Below, in pieces: positions 44,762 through 61,807 of a stretch of 64,000 bases of DNA. Below the pieces are notes generated by a model. The model was not told where the DNA came from. It saw only the letters and a program-made list of their open reading frames with translations, and ran no database searches. Both the position numbers and the translations under genes were made by a program. Within the stretch, counting starts at the first letter, position 1. Each line of letters opens with the position of its first letter. Origin of the DNA: a virus (Duplodnaviria; Caudoviricetes); IMG/VR virus record IMGVR_UViG_3300031134_000001, positions 1-64,000 of that record, one strand, 5' to 3'.

Positions 44762-45562
44762 ATGTTCGCCAATACCAACTCGGTCGTCTTTGCTTGCACC
44801 TCGCTTGAAGGTGTGAACAAAGTCGGCCTGCTGAAAAAGACACCGGAGGGTTATTACCCGATGGTGGTGGGGGCGTTAAACGTCTTCAACTCGGGCGGGC
44901 AGTTCTACCCAGCCAACAACGATGCACGTGCGCTGTTCGAACAATCCAGTTCGTTCATGCGCCGTGTGCAAGATGGTGCACTGCGTGGTGAGATGGGTCA
45001 CCCAAAGCCGGGACCGCGCAGTCTGGATCAAAACGAACAGCGCTTGCGCGATCAAGAGTTCGTTCGCCGTAACCTCTCGATCTACGAAGAACGGGTGTGT
45101 TGCCACCACATGAAGATTTGGCTGGACTTCGATTCAGTCAAAAACAAAGATGGTCAGCCAGTCATCGCCATCATGTCGCTGGTCAAGCCCAGCGGCGAAC
45201 TCGGCCACGTCTTGGAAAAGCAATTGGAAAACCCGCATGAGAATGTGTGTTTCTCGATCCGCTCGTTCACAGACAACAAAACCCGCTTCGGCATCGAAGA
45301 GCGCACGCTCAAAGAAATCGTGACGTTTGACTACGTTAACGAGCCAGGCATTTCCCACGCTAAGAAGTATCTCTCCCCGGCCTTGGAGAGCGGCTTTGAA
45401 ATGTCAATTAGCCGTGGTATGTTGGACAGCGCAATCATGATGAACCGTCCGGACAGTGTGTCGTCCGAGTCGATCATCGTTCGCCCTGACAACCTGTACA
45501 ATTCGATGAACTGGCCACTGCCAGGTCATAGTTCGAAACAGCTGCCTTCGCGCGGCTGGTAA
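44762..45562 (+). CDS. Prohead protease (phiKZ gp175-like)
   Basis: LRGEMGHP (His), CFSIRS (Ser), TFDYVNEPGI (Asp region), and a C-terminal ALE|S self-cleavage-type site. Confidence 0.87.
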   Translation: MFANTNSVVFACTSLEGVNKVGLLKKTPEGYYPMVVGALNVFNSGGQFYPANNDARALFEQSSSFMRRVQDGALRGEMGHPKPGPRSLDQNEQRLRDQEFVRRNLSIYEERVCCHHMKIWLDFDSVKNKDGQPVIAIMSLVKPSGELGHVLEKQLENPHENVCFSIRSFTDNKTRFGIEERTLKEIVTFDYVNEPGISHAKKYLSPALESGFEMSISRGMLDSAIMMNRPDSVSSESIIVRPDNLYNSMNWPLPGHSSKQLPSRGW

Positions 45563-46243: not shown

Positions 46244-46286
46244 TTCATTTCACCCGTAGTACATACCACCAAAAAAGGAAAACAGC

Positions 46287-46793
46287 ATGAGCACCGAAAA
46301 GATCGCAGAAGTCAAACTGAATCCGGCCGTCGAAGAAATGAAGGGCAAGATCTACGAAGCCATCACCGTGTCGAACACCGGTGACGTCGAAAAGACCGAG
46401 AACATCTACGAGAGCACCCTGCCCGACGACATCACGATCGACATGGTCAAGCGCGTCAACACGCACAACGAACTGTTCATCGCTGCCGCCTACGACGCCA
46501 TCGGTGACGCTGCTCGCGCCGCGGCCCTGGAACACGAAGGCATCAAGCAAGTCAACGCAACCATCGGCATGACCGGCCGCAACACCCTGCACGTGCAGTG
46601 GGACCGCGCCGTCGAACGCAACGCCGGCATCGCCGAAAAAGGCAAGGTCGCCCCGAAGAAAACCGTGTACGGCGCCATGTCCGGCAAACTGACCGTCGCC
46701 GGCACCGACACCGGCTCGGGCGAGCTGGGCAAAGTCGCACGTCGCCAAAAGCAAGCAGCACAAGACATGTTCGCGCCGGCCGTCACGGCCTAA
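46287..46793 (+). CDS. Abundant small protein of unknown function
   Basis: 168 aa with AAAGGAAA RBS; near-exclusive C/G-ending codons; basic C-terminal third. Confidence 0.8.
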   Translation: MSTEKIAEVKLNPAVEEMKGKIYEAITVSNTGDVEKTENIYESTLPDDITIDMVKRVNTHNELFIAAAYDAIGDAARAAALEHEGIKQVNATIGMTGRNTLHVQWDRAVERNAGIAEKGKVAPKKTVYGAMSGKLTVAGTDTGSGELGKVARRQKQAAQDMFAPAVTA

Positions 46794-46801
46794 GCAGCAT
46801 C

Positions 46802-47210
46802 GACCTGGTAGTCCCTTGTAATGCATGAAAGCTCACCAGGCACACCCATGCGTTACAAGGAGGTCAAAAAGAAATCTACTGATGTCGACGTTTGCTCACA
46901 CCGGCGACTAGGTAGTCCTGCTCTGACACACCGCGGTAGTTATTCTCTCGCAATCCAACGCGAAGGTTATAAGTTACAATCTATCGCCAAGTGTGTTACG
47001 ACAGGATCGAGACTAGGACAGACCTAGTGCTCGGAGCACCGCAAATTCTTGAAACATTCCTCTTAGCTCTTAGCGGGGCAAACGGGGCGCATTGGTCCCC
47101 ATCGAGAATCTGTGGTGTTAGTAGTTCCATGACGGTGAGGCGTCATGGTTGTGGATAGCCGCACTGCCCTTCGGGGTGGTGCGGTTATTTATGACGTCTT
47201 TATTTTTTTG
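46802..47210 (+). ncRNA. Candidate structured non-coding RNA or long structured 3' UTR
   Basis: No convincing ORF. Long nested stems found by eye (46814-46827/46847-46860; 46908-47027), further hairpins, and a terminator with T tract at ~47155-47210. Confidence 0.55.
47155..47210 (+). terminator. Rho-independent terminator, TATGACGT family
   Basis: atagccgcactgccc-ttcg-gggtggtgcggttat, then ttatgacgt and a T run. Confidence 0.8.
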
Positions 47211-47323
47211 TTTGTTTCTAGGTGTATTGCCCCTAAGCCTCACCACGGCGTTTGTTTTTGCTCCACTCAAGAATCTACCGCGCAGTAGAAAGAATCGCTC
47301 CTAGAGGCTATACGTAGGTCCTG

Positions 47324-47377
47324 ACGGCATAATACCCCCATCCATCTCCACAGCGGGGATGGATGGGATGTATGACT
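47324..47377. terminator. Hairpin at the end of the tail tube gene, ACGGCATA/TATG family
   Basis: acggcataa-tacccccatccatctcc-acagc-ggggatggatgggatg-tatgact. Confidence 0.7.
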
Positions 47378-47381
47378 TCAA

Positions 47382-48272
47382 TTAGAAGTTGGTCTGACGC
47401 TGCGAGACAGCTTTGATGGAAGCATCGAAACCAGTTTCGACTGCCGATGCGACGTCTGCGCTGATCTTGTCGACCATGGCTTGTTTCATCATCGGGTTTG
47501 CACCCACGTAGTTCACGGCGTTCAGGATACGCTGCGCGAACGCATCGACGCCGGCGCCGACTTGTTGCAGAGCGGTGAACGACAGATCGACCGTGACGGT
47601 TTGCATGTCCTGGGTCTTGTCAGCCGAACCGACGATATCGCCGGTGCCTTCAGGGAACATGTTAAAGCACAGGAACGCTTGCTGGACTTTACGACCGAAT
47701 GCATCCGGTTCGATGTACAGCACGGTCATTGTGGTCTGGTCAGCCAGCAGGTCGGGCGACGCGCCGCCGGCAAATGCTGCTTGGAAGCTTGGCAGGGTAG
47801 CGACCGATGCGAACTTGGTGTCCGGGTCCATACCAGCGTAGAGCATCCAGGTTTCGATCAGGCGTTGGATCGGACGACCGTAACGCTCGATGTACGAGTG
47901 CTTGGGCATCGATTCAGCGCGCTTGATGTTCACCAGGTCGCGTTGCATTTGACCGGAACCACCGAATGCGTTTTGTGCGAATTCAGCGGTCAGGCCGCGG
48001 TTCAGACCGTCGATCGACAGCCACTGCGTCTCGATCAGAGCGCGCAGAACCTTGACGAACTTGTCGCCGTTGGGGAAGTACTGGAACAGCTTCGGAGCCT
48101 GGATCAGGATCGGGATGAGGTGACGACGTACGTGAGCTTGGTTGTTGACAAACGCAGCGTGGTCTGGAGCCCAGCCCATCTGACCGCCATAGGTCAGGTC
48201 GACCATGGGTGCGTTCGCACCCAGACCGAAGGCTGTGCCCGGTTGCATGATAGCACCATTGACGCGGGACAT
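47382..48272 (-). CDS. Tail tube protein (phiKZ gp30-like)
   Basis: 296 aa directly downstream of the sheath gene; IETQWLSIDGLN, CFNMFPEGTG; extreme codon bias. Confidence 0.85.
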   Translation of the reverse strand: MSRVNGAIMQPGTAFGLGANAPMVDLTYGGQMGWAPDHAAFVNNQAHVRRHLIPILIQAPKLFQYFPNGDKFVKVLRALIETQWLSIDGLNRGLTAEFAQNAFGGSGQMQRDLVNIKRAESMPKHSYIERYGRPIQRLIETWMLYAGMDPDTKFASVATLPSFQAAFAGGASPDLLADQTTMTVLYIEPDAFGRKVQQAFLCFNMFPEGTGDIVGSADKTQDMQTVTVDLSFTALQQVGAGVDAFAQRILNAVNYVGANPMMKQAMVDKISADVASAVETGFDASIKAVSQRQTNF

Positions 48273-48341: not shown

Positions 48342-50423
48342 TTAAGCTTGAGCCAGATCTTCAGCGCGGTACGACTCGATGGTCAGCGACTGGACAGTGC
48401 GCATCGGCGAGGCGCCGAGCTTGATCACGGTCGTCCAGCTGTAACCACGCAGGTCATCGTCCGCAGTGAAGTGCGTATCTGGGATGATGATGAAGCGGTT
48501 GTCGAACTTGCCATCGACTTCCGCCATGATCGCAGCGTTCACACGTTCGACGATCTGGTCTTTGGTCAGATCGCTACGGCCGGTGAAATCGCGGTGCACC
48601 TTGTCGCCGATACGCACGAGTTGTGCGCAAGCAAACGCGGTGATCGCGCTGTTCAACACCGAGGTGTCGTCTGGGTAGACGGTCTGGTGTGCTGGGAAGT
48701 ACATGGTGTCCATGGTGTACGGCTCAGGCCAGACCATGCTTGCTTCCCAGTCCTTGTAACGGGCGGTAGCAGGACGGAACACGACGTTCAGGTCGCGCAG
48801 CGTCGAGACGACGTTGTTCGGGTTGACGTCTGGCTTGTAGTTTGGAACCCACTTGCCGTTCGATGCACCCATGTACAGCGCCCACTTTTCAGCACGGTCG
48901 ATCGAAGCCGGAACAGCGGCGACGTAGTTGCTGTTGAGCAGGTAGCCCGAACCAGCGACAATACTGGCGCGCACCGTTGGGGTAGCGTAGTATTCCGATT
49001 CAGGGTAGTTCAGCAGATGCTGCGACAGCGAAATCGCCACCGAACGTTCTTGATCGTCCGTCAGCATTTGACCGCCGACAACGTGGGTGGCACCCATCAC
49101 GAACGTATCCTTACGGACCGCGATGAAGTTACCCATGACCATCTTGACCGACAGCGGGAAGCCGGAATCCCAGAAGATGTTCTCCGGGTTGTTCACAGCG
49201 TCTTGACGCTGGCTGTTCTTGTCGCCGTATTCCTGCAACTTGGCTTTGACCAGCGCCGAGAAGGCTTCGTCGGTCATCGTGCCGTCGTTACCACCTTGGG
49301 CAAACATCACGCCGTTCTCGTTCATGCGTACGCTGTTAGCAGCGCCGACGACGAGTTGGAAAGCGTGGTATGGCGCGCCGTAGGACGACACAGCGGTGAA
49401 CGGGTTCAGACGGTAGATCTCGTCTTCTTCACCGTTGATGTCGCTGAACATGTCCATGTGCGGGAACTCGACGGTGTGGATCATCGACAACACGGTCTTG
49501 ATGTTGTTGTCGTAGACCTTGACACGGTCGAAGTCACCGATGGTTGGCGAGAAGCCTGGGGTCGACGCGTCTTGGTAAGCCTTGACGAAGATGTCGCCCA
49601 GATACATTTGTGCCGACGTGTTACGGTCGCGCATGCCTGGCTTCAGGGTGAACGTGATCGCTGGCGCGCCCGAGAGGGTGCCGACGGTCGACGGACTGGT
49701 CAGGCGATCCGGACGCGATTTAACCGCGAGCTGGAACGGGTATGCTTTTTGATCGGTGATCAGGCGGGTGTCGACAGCAGCTTGCGACAGTTGGGTCAGT
49801 GCCCAGATCGCGATGCCTTTGTGGTTACCCCATTCGCCTTCCGAGCTGACCATGAAGTCCAGGATCGGGTAGCGGTCCGACTGTGTCGAATTGCTGGTGT
49901 CGGTTTGGTCACCCTTGGTGATTTGGCCGATACCGAATTGACGCATGCCGTCAACAACAGCGATGGGTTCAACAACCCATTTGCCCATGATGCCGTCGTG
50001 CTTGGCAGCCACCGGGATCTTTTGACCGTCGTTGATTTTGTACGAGCCATCGAGATTGCGCTCGAAGTCTTGCACTTGCGTTGGCAGCAAATCGAACGAC
50101 AGACGGAAAGCCGCCGGAGGTGCGATATCGCTTGGTGCCACGCGCTCGACGCAGGTCGAATTGCCGGCGCGGTTGAACACGTTGGCAAATGCGGTCGAGT
50201 GGTTGAAGTACGGGCTTGTTTCGTCGAACGTTTCCGCACCGAAGATGGCAGCACGGCTGGCACCCACAACGAGATAGTTCTTGCCGAGTTTACCCTTGCG
50301 GGCGAACACGAACGATTTTGGCAGGTGGGATGGCTGATCGAGTGGCTGGGGAGCCAGTGTCCGACCAGACACATCGTGGATGCCGCGATTATACGACATC
50401 GCTACGGCGTTTGGAATGTTCAT
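48342..50423 (-). CDS. Tail sheath protein (phiKZ gp29-like)
   Basis: 693 aa; QPLDQPSHLPKSFVFARKG, FWDSGFPL, C-terminal FTADDDLRGYSWT; paired with the tube gene. Confidence 0.88.
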   Translation of the reverse strand: MNIPNAVAMSYNRGIHDVSGRTLAPQPLDQPSHLPKSFVFARKGKLGKNYLVVGASRAAIFGAETFDETSPYFNHSTAFANVFNRAGNSTCVERVAPSDIAPPAAFRLSFDLLPTQVQDFERNLDGSYKINDGQKIPVAAKHDGIMGKWVVEPIAVVDGMRQFGIGQITKGDQTDTSNSTQSDRYPILDFMVSSEGEWGNHKGIAIWALTQLSQAAVDTRLITDQKAYPFQLAVKSRPDRLTSPSTVGTLSGAPAITFTLKPGMRDRNTSAQMYLGDIFVKAYQDASTPGFSPTIGDFDRVKVYDNNIKTVLSMIHTVEFPHMDMFSDINGEEDEIYRLNPFTAVSSYGAPYHAFQLVVGAANSVRMNENGVMFAQGGNDGTMTDEAFSALVKAKLQEYGDKNSQRQDAVNNPENIFWDSGFPLSVKMVMGNFIAVRKDTFVMGATHVVGGQMLTDDQERSVAISLSQHLLNYPESEYYATPTVRASIVAGSGYLLNSNYVAAVPASIDRAEKWALYMGASNGKWVPNYKPDVNPNNVVSTLRDLNVVFRPATARYKDWEASMVWPEPYTMDTMYFPAHQTVYPDDTSVLNSAITAFACAQLVRIGDKVHRDFTGRSDLTKDQIVERVNAAIMAEVDGKFDNRFIIIPDTHFTADDDLRGYSWTTVIKLGASPMRTVQSLTIESYRAEDLAQA

Positions 50424-60797: not shown

Positions 60798-61271
60798 TGC
60801 AAGTTTCCTTCACGTGGGTAAAAAAGATCTGAGTTAACACACGCTAATTTGAAGCGATGCGTTTCACAGTATGGTTAAGCACAGAATGTGGGTCAAGGAA
60901 CGTTAGTTGTCTAAAAGACAACGCGCGCCCTTTACGTACATGTATTTCTGTTTTTTCAAGCGGCTACGCTTTAAGGTGGATGTATTCCAAATAATACCCT
61001 TGTCTTTGTTTTTATTCATTTATCTTTAGTGTTATTAGAGAAGCGCCCCTAAGGCGCGGATCGCTAGGCTACGCTGTAAATGTTTCCTCCGGTAAAAAAA
61101 TACAGTGAGGTACAAGATGTTTATGCATTGTAGCGAGTGGAACGAGCGGTCGGTAACGAACGGCGCGGTAGCAGAGTGAAGTTAGTAGGAAAACCAACTA
61201 CGTTTGGGGGAGAGGGGGGCAACTTACCCTAGGACCCGCATAGCGGGGCCTCTATCTAACAAGCAAAACTA

Positions 61272-61775: not shown

Positions 61776-61807
61776 AGCTAACCCACCTTCGGGTGGGCTT
61801 TATGCCG
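61772..61807. terminator. Hairpin, TATGCCGT family
   Basis: ataaagc-taa-cccacc-ttcg-ggtggg-ctttat-gccgt. Confidence 0.7.

What the first reader, a model, noticed from the sequence alone, without database searches (positions are those of the whole stretch)
46802..47210. Candidate novel ~400-nt structured non-coding RNA
This is one of the two largest non-coding gaps in an otherwise packed window, and it is extensively self-complementary. Stem A: ccttgtaatgcatg (46814-27) pairs with catgcgttacaagg (46847-60), closed by gacct/aggtc. Stem B is a ~120-nt nested rod: ctaggt/acctag (46908/47022), tcctg/cagga, acacac/gtgtgt, gcggtag/ctatcgc, tcgc/gcga. Both long stems begin with a near-identical 14-mer (gacctggtagtccc at 46802; gactaggtagtcct at 46906). 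Then come gtgctc-gga-gcac, gggg...cccc, the perfect ccatgacg-gtgagg-cgtcatgg hairpin (47127-48) and a T-tailed terminator. G-U pairs favour the plus strand. I saw no tRNA, tmRNA or RNase P hallmarks. It could be a protein-sponge/decoy RNA, a 6S-like RNAP mimic, or a structural RNA.
Basis: partly seen in the sequence, partly recalled or inferred. Interest (0 to 1): 0.72.

Follow-up and report, generated by a model that had tools for sequence, protein, structure and literature searches.

The report
Modular structured RNA tail, jumbo phage
The largest gene-free stretch of this uncultivated giant phage encodes a heavily folded plus-strand RNA attached to the end of a 168-aa gene; two of its folded modules are conserved with compensating mutations in related phages, match no known RNA family, and have no known function.

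Summary
Window 46794-47210 folds far better than shuffles on the + strand (z -6.2; minus strand -3.1). It matches no Rfam family, no tRNA or tmRNA, and holds no conserved ORF.

It lies between convergent genes of a complete 271-kb phiKZ-like phage: a 168-aa ORF and the tail tube gene. It is the longest ORF-free stretch in that genome.

It is not one conserved 400-nt unit but a chain of modules:
- **Module A** (46802-46865) is a long hairpin just after the stop codon. Its loop holds an invariant ACCAGGCAC core in seven lineages and its stem covaries.
- **Module C** (47035-47119) has a closing helix in which 10 of 12 pairs change on both sides across five lineages.
- **Terminator** (47150-47210) is of the phiKZ type.
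Relatives carry other modules there, including tRNA-like ones.

Strain variants include one fully compensatory pair. Three further changes keep pairing on the + strand only.

Two phyllosphere metatranscriptome contigs cover the region. One runs on from the upstream coding sequence, and both stop at 47114/47115.

Best reading: a structured 3' tail that leaves a stable RNA with specific docking sites. The partner and the function are unknown. A 6S-like role is not supported.

The parts
46287..46793 (+). 168-aa ORF of unknown function whose transcript carries the structured tail
   Evidence: ORF list. PHROG 9746, unknown function. No Pfam hit. A ~165-180-aa ORF sits in the same position, convergent with the tube gene, in the relatives' loci where that part is held. 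An RNA contig runs from 46470 across the stop codon to 47114.
46802..46865 (+). Module A: long hairpin about 10-20 nt after the stop codon (stem 46814-27 with 46847-60). The 19-nt apical loop holds the core CACCAGGCACACC (46834-46846).
   Evidence: Fold z -3.9. The loop core ACCAGGCAC is invariant in 7 lineages. The upper stem is 91% paired over 8 pairs in 7 sequences, against 30-43% when slid, and pairs 4-8 show 3-5 pair types. A strain variant carries G46818C together with C46856G, a compensatory pair.
46866..46880 (+). Conserved A-rich single-stranded linker (AAAAAGAAAUC)
   Evidence: Conserved after Module A in all seven lineages. It is unpaired in local folds.
46906..47033 (+).
   Evidence: Fold z -4.2. 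No sequence counterpart in any relative locus. Relatives carry other modules here, including tRNA-like ones. Strain variants fall mostly in its apical unpaired part. A 7-bp direct repeat GACTAGG (46906-12 and 47011-17) flanks the rod; this could be chance.
47035..47119 (+). Module C: closing helix (core 47041-52 with 47102-13) around the conserved strands GAAACAUUCC (47051-60) and UGGUCCYCAUC (47093-47103), with inner hairpin GGGG/CCYC (47084-87 with 47097-47100)
   Evidence: Of 12 closing pairs, 10 change on both sides. 92% of cells are paired against 43-52% when slid, and 0 of 500 shuffles reach this. The covariance model R1 finds it only in the window, L004, L005, L093 and L095 at 66-73 bits. 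Fold z -4.1 on +, -1.4 on minus. Two RNA contigs end at 47114/47115.
47118..47148 (+). Linker UUAGUAGUU (AGUAGU at 47120-25) and the perfect 8-bp hairpin 47127-47148. The base CCAUG...CAUGGUUGUG is shared with L004 and L095.
   Evidence: RGUAGU occurs 15 times on the + strand of ten gaps against 2.9 expected and 4 on the minus strand.
47150..47210 (+). Intrinsic terminator of the + strand unit: long G-U-rich stem, CUUCGG loop, then UAUGACGUC and a U run
   Evidence: Terminator scan. Stems covary in 10 loci around an almost invariant CUUCGG loop. The variants A47163G and T47165C keep pairing, the first only on the + strand. The same hairpin-plus-TATGNCGTC design recurs about 21 times in the genome.
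47211..47322 (.). Spacer between the two facing terminators. It is conserved in sequence (AAGAATCTACC, CGCTCCTAGAGGC) but not structured.
   Evidence: Conserved blocks. Fold z -1.0 on + and 0.0 on minus. This is the site where relatives carry an inserted gene cassette.
47323..47368 (-). Terminator of the tail tube gene: hairpin 47337-47368 followed, on the minus strand, by UAUGCCGUC
47382..48272 (-). Tail tube gene, convergent with the RNA unit
   Evidence: PF23806 Phage_TTP_14, E 1.4e-92. PHROG 3185.

Best explanation
Window 46794-47210 encodes, on the + strand, the long and highly structured 3' tail of the transcript of the 168-aa gene. A phiKZ-type intrinsic terminator ends it.

The tail is a chain of independently folding modules joined by short single-stranded linkers (A-rich, or RGUAGU). 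Two modules are old and under selection for structure: Module A, a hairpin with an invariant apical-loop core placed just after the stop codon, and Module C, a covarying helix around two invariant strands. The middle rod is a recent, lineage-specific addition.

How I think it works (inferred):
- The stack of stable helices stops 3'-to-5' decay and stops read-through into the convergent tail operon.
- A stable RNA is left whose 3' end sits at the foot of Module C, near 47115.
- The invariant loop core of Module A and the junction strands of Module C serve as docking sites for a specific partner, a protein or another RNA.

Shown: structure, strand, conservation, covariation, continuity with the upstream coding sequence in an RNA-library contig.
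Inferred: processing, stability, docking function, identity of any partner.
For: **Folding**
- + strand z -6.2 against -3.1 on the minus strand.
- Each sub-element scores z about -4.
- The + strand fold is 14-53 kcal/mol more stable than the minus strand in 8 of 10 related loci.
- L004 and L005 fold at z -8.6 and -4.7.

**Covariation**
- Module C's closing helix has 10 of 12 pairs changed on both sides and 92% of cells paired, against about 45% when slid; 0 of 500 shuffles reach this.
- Module A's stem is 91% paired against 30-43% when slid.
- Terminator stems covary.

**Strain variants**
- G46818C with C46856G is a compensatory pair.
- A47035G, A47038G and A47163G keep pairing only as G-U on the + strand.

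**Non-coding and unclassified**
- No Rfam, tRNA or tmRNA match.
- No frame-specific conservation.

**Transcript evidence**
- A 644-nt contig of a phyllosphere metatranscriptome covers 46470-47114 without a break across the stop codon.
- A 231-nt contig of a second study covers 46886-47115.
- Both end within one base of each other with no loose ends, while a DNA contig continues.

**Linkage and range**
- The RNA stays next to the ~170-aa gene even where a gene cassette is inserted between it and the tube gene.
- Phages with 40-46% tube identity have no such gap.
Against: - The RNA evidence comes from assembled contigs. They give no strand, no true ends and no expression level, and DNA carry-over in the libraries was not excluded.
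- The two runs share year and habitat and may be one campaign.
- Only 5-7 independent lineages carry the modules, so covariation statistics rest on few sequences.
- Module C is missing from two close relatives (L091, L094), so it is dispensable in some lineages.
- No partner has been identified. No complement of the Module A loop exists elsewhere in the phage genome.
- A purely protective role would not need invariant loop sequences. A docking role has no direct support.
Confidence: 0.55

Rival explanations
1. A trans-acting stable non-coding RNA, released from the 3' tail, titrates or mimics a host factor. Candidates are Hfq (through the A-rich and AGU-AGU single-stranded linkers plus the U tail) or the RNase E degradosome.
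For: - Module A's loop core is invariant while its stem diverges.
- Single-stranded ARN-like linkers (AAAAAGAAAUC, AGUAGU) are strand-specific and enriched.
- The contig over 46470-47114 has about ten times the depth of the contigs over the 5' part of the same gene (weak, one figure per contig).
- The architecture is modular.
- From general knowledge, not tested here: phiKZ-type phages target the degradosome with the protein Dip.
Against: - No binding data exist.
- The host is unknown.
- ARN-type motifs are short and common.
- Contig depth is a poor measure of abundance.
- The element is always linked in cis to one gene.
Confidence: 0.22
2. A precursor for several small stable RNAs: an RNA gene island. 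The modules would be cut apart at the RGUAGU or A-rich linkers, as in a tRNA operon, and lineages would swap modules in and out.
For: - Relatives carry tRNA-like modules with T arms at this site (L005, L091; sub-threshold Rfam tRNA-Sec hit of 25 bits).
- A tRNA lies just upstream of the ~170-aa gene in L004 (36 bits), and a tRNA 3' end is seen in the X15 strain.
- Module content differs between close relatives.
- A punctuation-like motif precedes several hairpins.
Against: - ARAGORN calls none of the tRNA-like modules at default settings.
- The window itself has no T-arm-like sequence here, and its seven tRNAs lie at 190-195 kb.
- One RNA contig spans Module A, the rod and Module C in a single piece.
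Confidence: 0.1
3. No RNA function beyond termination. The gap would be a recombination and insertion hotspot between convergent operons, filled with palindromic scars and decayed mobile elements.
For: - Gene cassettes and GIY-YIG endonuclease genes insert here in relatives.
- The middle part is not conserved.
- The rod is flanked by a 7-bp direct repeat.
Against: - Helices covary.
- G-U pairs are kept on the + strand only.
- Loop cores stay invariant across lineages whose stems have diverged.
- RNA-library contigs cover the region.
Confidence: 0.08
4. A 6S-like RNA polymerase mimic, or a small protein gene (the 68-aa ORF 46821-47027).
For: A rod-like fold at 46915-47007. An ATG-started ORF exists.
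Against: - No Rfam 6S match even at E up to 10.
- The rod has no counterpart in any relative locus.
- The ORF's start lies inside the Module A stem.
- Six-frame comparison shows matches in all frames and on both strands, and only at nucleotide-conserved blocks.
Confidence: 0.03

Closest known systems
Conserved intrinsic terminator motif of phiKZ and 201phi2-1 (ONT-cappable-seq; PMC10914365, PMC11512511)
   Same: The 3' end of the unit is a GC-rich hairpin with a U run. The same design is reused about 21 times in this genome, often facing another copy at convergent gene ends. Both papers report a reused terminator motif, elongated hairpins and bidirectional sites.
   Different: This explains only 47150-47210 and 47323-47368, not the roughly 350 nt of structured RNA upstream. 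The papers give their motifs as figures, so I could not compare the sequences letter by letter.
Structured small RNA conserved by position in giant phages (201phi2-1 sRNA005, and phiKZ sRNA upstream of gp182; PMC11512511)
   Same: A structured RNA of a nucleus-forming jumbo phage, kept at a fixed place next to a structural gene in related phages. Its function is unknown.
   Different: That RNA comes from a 5' UTR by early termination and is short. This one is a 3' tail of about 400 nt with several modules. I found no sequence relation.
3'-UTR-derived small RNAs of enterobacteria (for example CpxQ, SroC; from general knowledge)
   Same: The RNA is co-transcribed with a coding gene, shares its terminator, and may be released as a stable 3' fragment.
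   Different: Those are 50-100 nt Hfq-dependent seed-pairing RNAs. Here no seed or target is known, the size is far larger, and processing is only hinted at by the contig ends.
Large ornate RNAs associated with phages and tRNAs (GOLLD RF01998, ROOL RF03087)
   Same: A long, multi-helix, phage-borne RNA of unknown function. Relatives have tRNA-like elements beside it.
   Different: No match to either model at gathering score, nor at E up to 10 over the region. It is much smaller and its module content is variable.
Stable RNAs of the phage T4 tRNA region (species 1 and 2; from general knowledge)
   Same: Phage-encoded stable structured RNAs of unknown function, found in company with tRNA genes.
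   Different: In the window no tRNA is adjacent, since the tRNA cluster lies at 190-195 kb.

Membership tests
Any Rfam 15 family (riboswitches, ribozymes, 6S, tmRNA, RNase P, GOLLD, ROOL, group I/II introns) | Covariance-model score at or above the family's gathering threshold | tested here: not met
   No hit in the 64-kb window at gathering score. Over 46700-47450 at E up to 10 there were only three chance-level hits of 12-16 bits against thresholds of 35-80.
6S RNA | Rod about 180 nt long with a large central bubble, conserved among relatives | tested here: not met
   The rod 46915-47007 is about 93 nt and has no counterpart in any of the related loci. No Rfam 6S hit.
tRNA / tmRNA | Cloverleaf with a T arm (GGUUCGAAUCC-like) and an acceptor stem | tested here: not met
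   ARAGORN finds none in the window and Rfam reports no tRNA at E up to 10. Relatives L005 and L091 do have T-arm-bearing tRNA-like modules at this site, but only below threshold.
phiKZ-type intrinsic terminator | GC-rich hairpin followed by a U run at the 3' end of a transcription unit, with a design reused across the genome | tested here: met
   47150-47210 is called by the terminator scan. The hairpin-plus-TATGNCGTC design recurs 24 times, about 21 of them after GC hairpins. Stems covary in 10 loci.
phiKZ-type intrinsic terminator | Mapped transcript 3' ends at the site | not testable with these tools
   Only assembled contigs were available, and they do not reach 47150.
Conserved structured RNA element (general criterion) | Helices kept through compensatory changes in independent lineages | tested here: met
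   Module C closing helix. Module A stem. Strain-level compensatory pair 46818/46856.
3'-UTR-derived stable RNA | Continuous transcription from the upstream coding sequence | tested here: inconclusive
   One RNA-library contig spans 46470-47114 across the stop codon. A contig can, however, merge overlapping transcripts, and DNA carry-over was not excluded.
3'-UTR-derived stable RNA | Discrete processed ends and accumulation above the parent mRNA | tested here: inconclusive
   Contigs of two runs end at 47114/47115 without loose ends. Contig depth is 30 against 2-3 for the 5' part of the gene. These are weak hints only.
Hfq-binding RNA | Single-stranded ARN repeats, a terminator U tail, and binding to Hfq | not testable with these tools
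   Sequence motifs compatible with ARN repeats exist. The host is unknown and no binding test is possible.
Small protein gene | An ORF conserved in one frame among relatives | tested here: not met
   The six-frame comparison of ten gaps shows only short matches, in several frames and on both strands, at nucleotide-conserved blocks.

The most novel reading that the evidence does not exclude
A clade of uncultivated nucleus-forming jumbo phages keeps a dedicated RNA locus behind one late gene, where structured modules are shuffled in and out. These include two new RNA folds with invariant recognition loops and tRNA-like pieces. The locus yields an abundant stable RNA that acts in trans on a host or phage factor: a decoy for Hfq or the degradosome, or a scaffold held together by a kissing contact between the Module A loop (ACCAG) and the Module C loop (YUGGU).
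Probability: 0.2. Interest if true: 0.8.

Novelty: new variant of a known kind. Interest (0 to 1): 0.55.

Why it matters
Little is known about RNA-level control in nucleus-forming jumbo phages. These phages transcribe with their own polymerases and must move RNA out of a protein shell.

This locus offers two compact, covariation-supported RNA folds that match no described family. Both sit at a fixed place in the longest non-coding stretch of the genome, and environmental RNA data show signs of expression.

If the modules bind a specific partner, they would be a handle on phage mRNA stability, processing or host-factor capture in this group. The module-swapping pattern would also show how phages evolve new RNAs.

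If the region is only a protective tail, it is still a useful annotation and an example of a very long structured 3' UTR in a phage.

Tried and rejected
- **Pattern scans.** Scans of IMG/VR for the Module C core and the Module A loop, and of the metagenome collection for Module C, returned only the contigs of L004 and L005 (one of them twice). All other hits were chance matches inside coding sequence.
- **Model search.** The covariance model R1 found no Module C in L091, L094, L096-L098 or 15 more distant phiKZ-like loci.
- **Kin search.** The genome search cannot draw relatives for a virus record.
- **Cultured relatives.** The 168-aa protein has no match in the cultured-phage collection. The closest cultured tail tube is 43.5% identical.
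- **Target search.** No complement of the Module A loop exists elsewhere in the genome within one mismatch.
- **Relaxed tRNA scan.** ARAGORN at a relaxed score gives scattered, unreliable calls in every gap. I did not use them.
- **Pseudoknot CCUGGU (46804-09) with loop ACCAGG (46835-40).**
  - For: the complementarity also exists in L004 and L091, and is swapped in L096.
  - Against: it is absent or imperfect in L095, L005 and L093, and the strain variant T46806A breaks its central pair without compensation.
  - It is left open, leaning against.
- **Stop-codon read-through.** Reading past the stop meets another stop after five codons.
- **Host-type promoters.** No sigma-70-type promoter was found. 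This is uninformative for a phage with its own polymerases.
- **RNA cover beyond 47115.** Parts of the stretch without RNA cover (47116-47700) prove nothing, because the contigs are fragmentary.
- **Literature.** Searches found no description of this element.

Full report
**Setting**

The window is the first 64 kb of a complete 271,026-bp virus record with direct terminal repeats. Its genes mark it as a phiKZ-like jumbo phage:
- tail sheath, 48342-50423 (-);
- tail tube, 47382-48272 (-), PF23806;
- prohead protease, 44762-45562 (+).

No cultured phage is close. The best tail tube match is 43.5% identical, and the 168-aa protein has no match at all. Near-identical DNA occurs in phyllosphere, straw and food-production metagenomes.

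The finding lies in a 588-nt gap (46794-47381) between convergent genes: a 168-aa ORF of unknown function on the + strand and the tail tube gene on the minus strand. This gap is the longest stretch of the whole genome without an ORF of 70 aa or more.

**The observation**

| Stretch | + strand | minus strand |
|---|---|---|
| Whole (46794-47215) | -168 kcal/mol vs -128 +/- 6.4 for shuffles; z -6.2 | z -3.1 |
| Module A hairpin | z -3.9 | -2.2 |
| Rod region | z -4.2 | -2.3 |
| Module C | z -4.1 | -1.4 |

Rfam gives nothing at gathering score and only chance-level hits at E up to 10. ARAGORN finds no tRNA or tmRNA.

**Relatives**

The tail tube protein led to loci at 82-57% identity (L004, L005, L090, L091, L093-L098). 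Wherever the neighbouring gene is held in the locus, a non-coding gap follows the ~170-aa gene: 525-837 nt in the loci with DNA, and about 460 nt in one contig without DNA. Each gap ends in a terminator and faces the tube gene. Phages with 40-46% tube identity have only 100-420 nt there. The long RNA region is therefore specific to this clade.

In L090, L091 and one more contig, a cassette lies between the tube gene and the RNA region. It carries Hcp, Rap1a and Tae4, and in L090 also a GIY-YIG endonuclease. The RNA stays with the ~170-aa gene.

**Anatomy by comparison**

- *Module A (46802-46865).* A long, irregular hairpin starts 10-20 nt after the stop codon. Its apical loop holds an invariant ACCAGGCAC core, within YCACCAGGCACRCC, in seven lineages. 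It is followed by a conserved A-rich linker. The first eight stem pairs are 91% paired across the seven sequences, against 30-43% when the partner is slid, and pairs 4-8 show three to five pair types.
- *Middle part (46906-47033).* The rod is unique to the window's lineage. L004 has two other hairpins there. L005, L093, L095, L094 and L091 share a different module. L005 and L091 also carry tRNA-like modules with T arms, which score below threshold in Rfam and are not called by ARAGORN.
- *Module C (47035-47119).* A closing helix surrounds GAAACAUUCC, a variable insert, and the hairpin GGGG...UGGUCCYC. Across five lineages, 10 of the 12 closing pairs change on both sides. 92% of cells pair, against 43-52% in slid controls, and no shuffle in 500 reaches the observed values. 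A covariance model finds it only in those five lineages.
- *3' end.* A linker (UUAGUAGUU) and a hairpin whose base is shared with L004 and L095 come next. Then comes the terminator, whose stems covary around a CUUCGG loop in ten loci.
- *RGUAGU motif.* It precedes several hairpins. It occurs 15 times on the + strand of the ten gaps (2.9 expected) and 4 times on the minus strand. AGUAGU alone occurs 9 times against 1.1 expected, and never on the minus strand.

**Strand and selection**

The + strand fold is 14-53 kcal/mol more stable than the minus strand in 8 of 10 loci. Wobble pairs in the Module C helices work only on the + strand.

Contigs of near-identical strains give direct evidence:
- G46818C and C46856G occur together and restore a pair in the Module A stem.
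- A47035G, A47038G and A47163G turn A-U pairs into G-U pairs, which would be A-C mismatches on the other strand.
- T47165C turns a U-G pair into C-G.
- Two changes (T46806A, C46945A) break predicted but less certain pairs.

**Expression**

Two phyllosphere metatranscriptome runs from different study records (same year and habitat) hold parts of the stretch.
- One 644-nt contig covers 46470-47114, so it runs on from the coding sequence across the stop codon through Module A, the rod and Module C.
- One 231-nt contig covers 46886-47115.

Both end within one base of each other, at the foot of the Module C closing helix, with no loose ends, while a DNA contig continues.

Contigs show no strand and no level, and DNA carry-over was not excluded.

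**Coding potential**

The six-frame comparison of the gaps shows short matches in several frames and on both strands, only where the nucleotides are conserved. The 68-aa ORF starts inside the Module A stem and spans the non-conserved rod. Reading through the stop codon of the 168-aa gene meets another stop after five codons.

**Interpretation**

Shown:
- a + strand RNA structure under selection;
- at least two conserved modules that match no described family;
- a standard terminator of the phiKZ type (compare PMC10914365 and PMC11512511);
- physical linkage to the ~170-aa gene.

Inferred:
- the helices protect the transcript's 3' end and insulate the two convergent operons;
- a stable fragment ending near 47115 accumulates;
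- the invariant loop core of Module A and the invariant strands of Module C are docking sites.

A purely protective role does not explain sequences that stay invariant while the stems around them change, so I expect a specific partner. It could be the 168-aa protein itself, a host factor such as Hfq or RNase E, or an internal loop-loop contact (ACCAG in the Module A loop with YUGGU in the Module C hairpin loop). The last cannot be tested because both sides are nearly invariant.

The 6S-like idea fails because the rod is not conserved. The tRNA-operon-like reading gains some weight from the tRNA-like modules of relatives, but the single contig across all modules argues against it.

**Novelty**

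The terminator is known biology. Modules A and C and the modular 3' tail are not in Rfam, and I found no description of them in the literature I searched.

Noticed in passing
window 47158-47198 (+), 47368-47323 (-), and genome-wide: A GC-rich hairpin followed directly by TATG(C/A)CGTC occurs 24 times in the 271-kb genome, about 21 of them right after a hairpin. Several sites carry the inverted half (GACGGCATA) on the other side, which gives long palindromes. Two copies face each other in this gap. It is probably this phage's version of the reused phiKZ-type terminator. The TATG may merely extend the stem base.
   Followed up: partly
window 47211-47322: The spacer between the two facing terminators has blocks (AAGAATCTACC, CGCTCCTAGAGGC) with recognisable counterparts in most related loci. 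It does not fold better than shuffles on either strand (z -1.0 and 0.0). It may be a protein-binding site or a short unstructured RNA. It is also where relatives carry inserted genes.
   Followed up: partly
L090:3603-5521, L091:3589-4930: Close relatives carry a cassette between the tail tube gene and the RNA region: Hcp (type VI secretion tube protein), Rap1a (immunity) and Tae4 (amidase effector), plus a GIY-YIG homing endonuclease in L090. A type VI effector-immunity set in a jumbo phage is unusual.
   Followed up: no
L004:6046-6177 (-); L091 gap (about L091:5070-5240, -); window 46247: Relatives have tRNA-like genes with good acceptor, D and T arms but 60-90 extra nucleotides in the middle (Rfam tRNA 36 bits in L004, with 75 nt in place of the 17-nt anticodon arm). 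In one strain from a metatranscriptome, a tRNA 3' end with CCA abuts position 46247, just upstream of the 168-aa gene, where the window has none.
   Followed up: partly
window 46906-46912 and 47011-47017: A 7-bp direct repeat GACTAGG flanks the lineage-specific rod. Removing the rod and one repeat copy would leave a simple hairpin. This may be the footprint of a small palindromic insertion, but a 7-mer repeat in 400 nt is expected by chance several times.
   Followed up: no
window 46807, 46911, 46935, 47120 and relatives' gaps: The motif RGUAGU (often YAGUAGU, sometimes followed by AAA) recurs in single-stranded linkers on the + strand only. It may be a processing signal or a protein-binding signal.
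   Followed up: partly
window 60822-61271: This is the second-largest ORF-free stretch of the genome (450 nt), with terminator-type hairpins at 61786 and 61809. I did not examine it.
   Followed up: no
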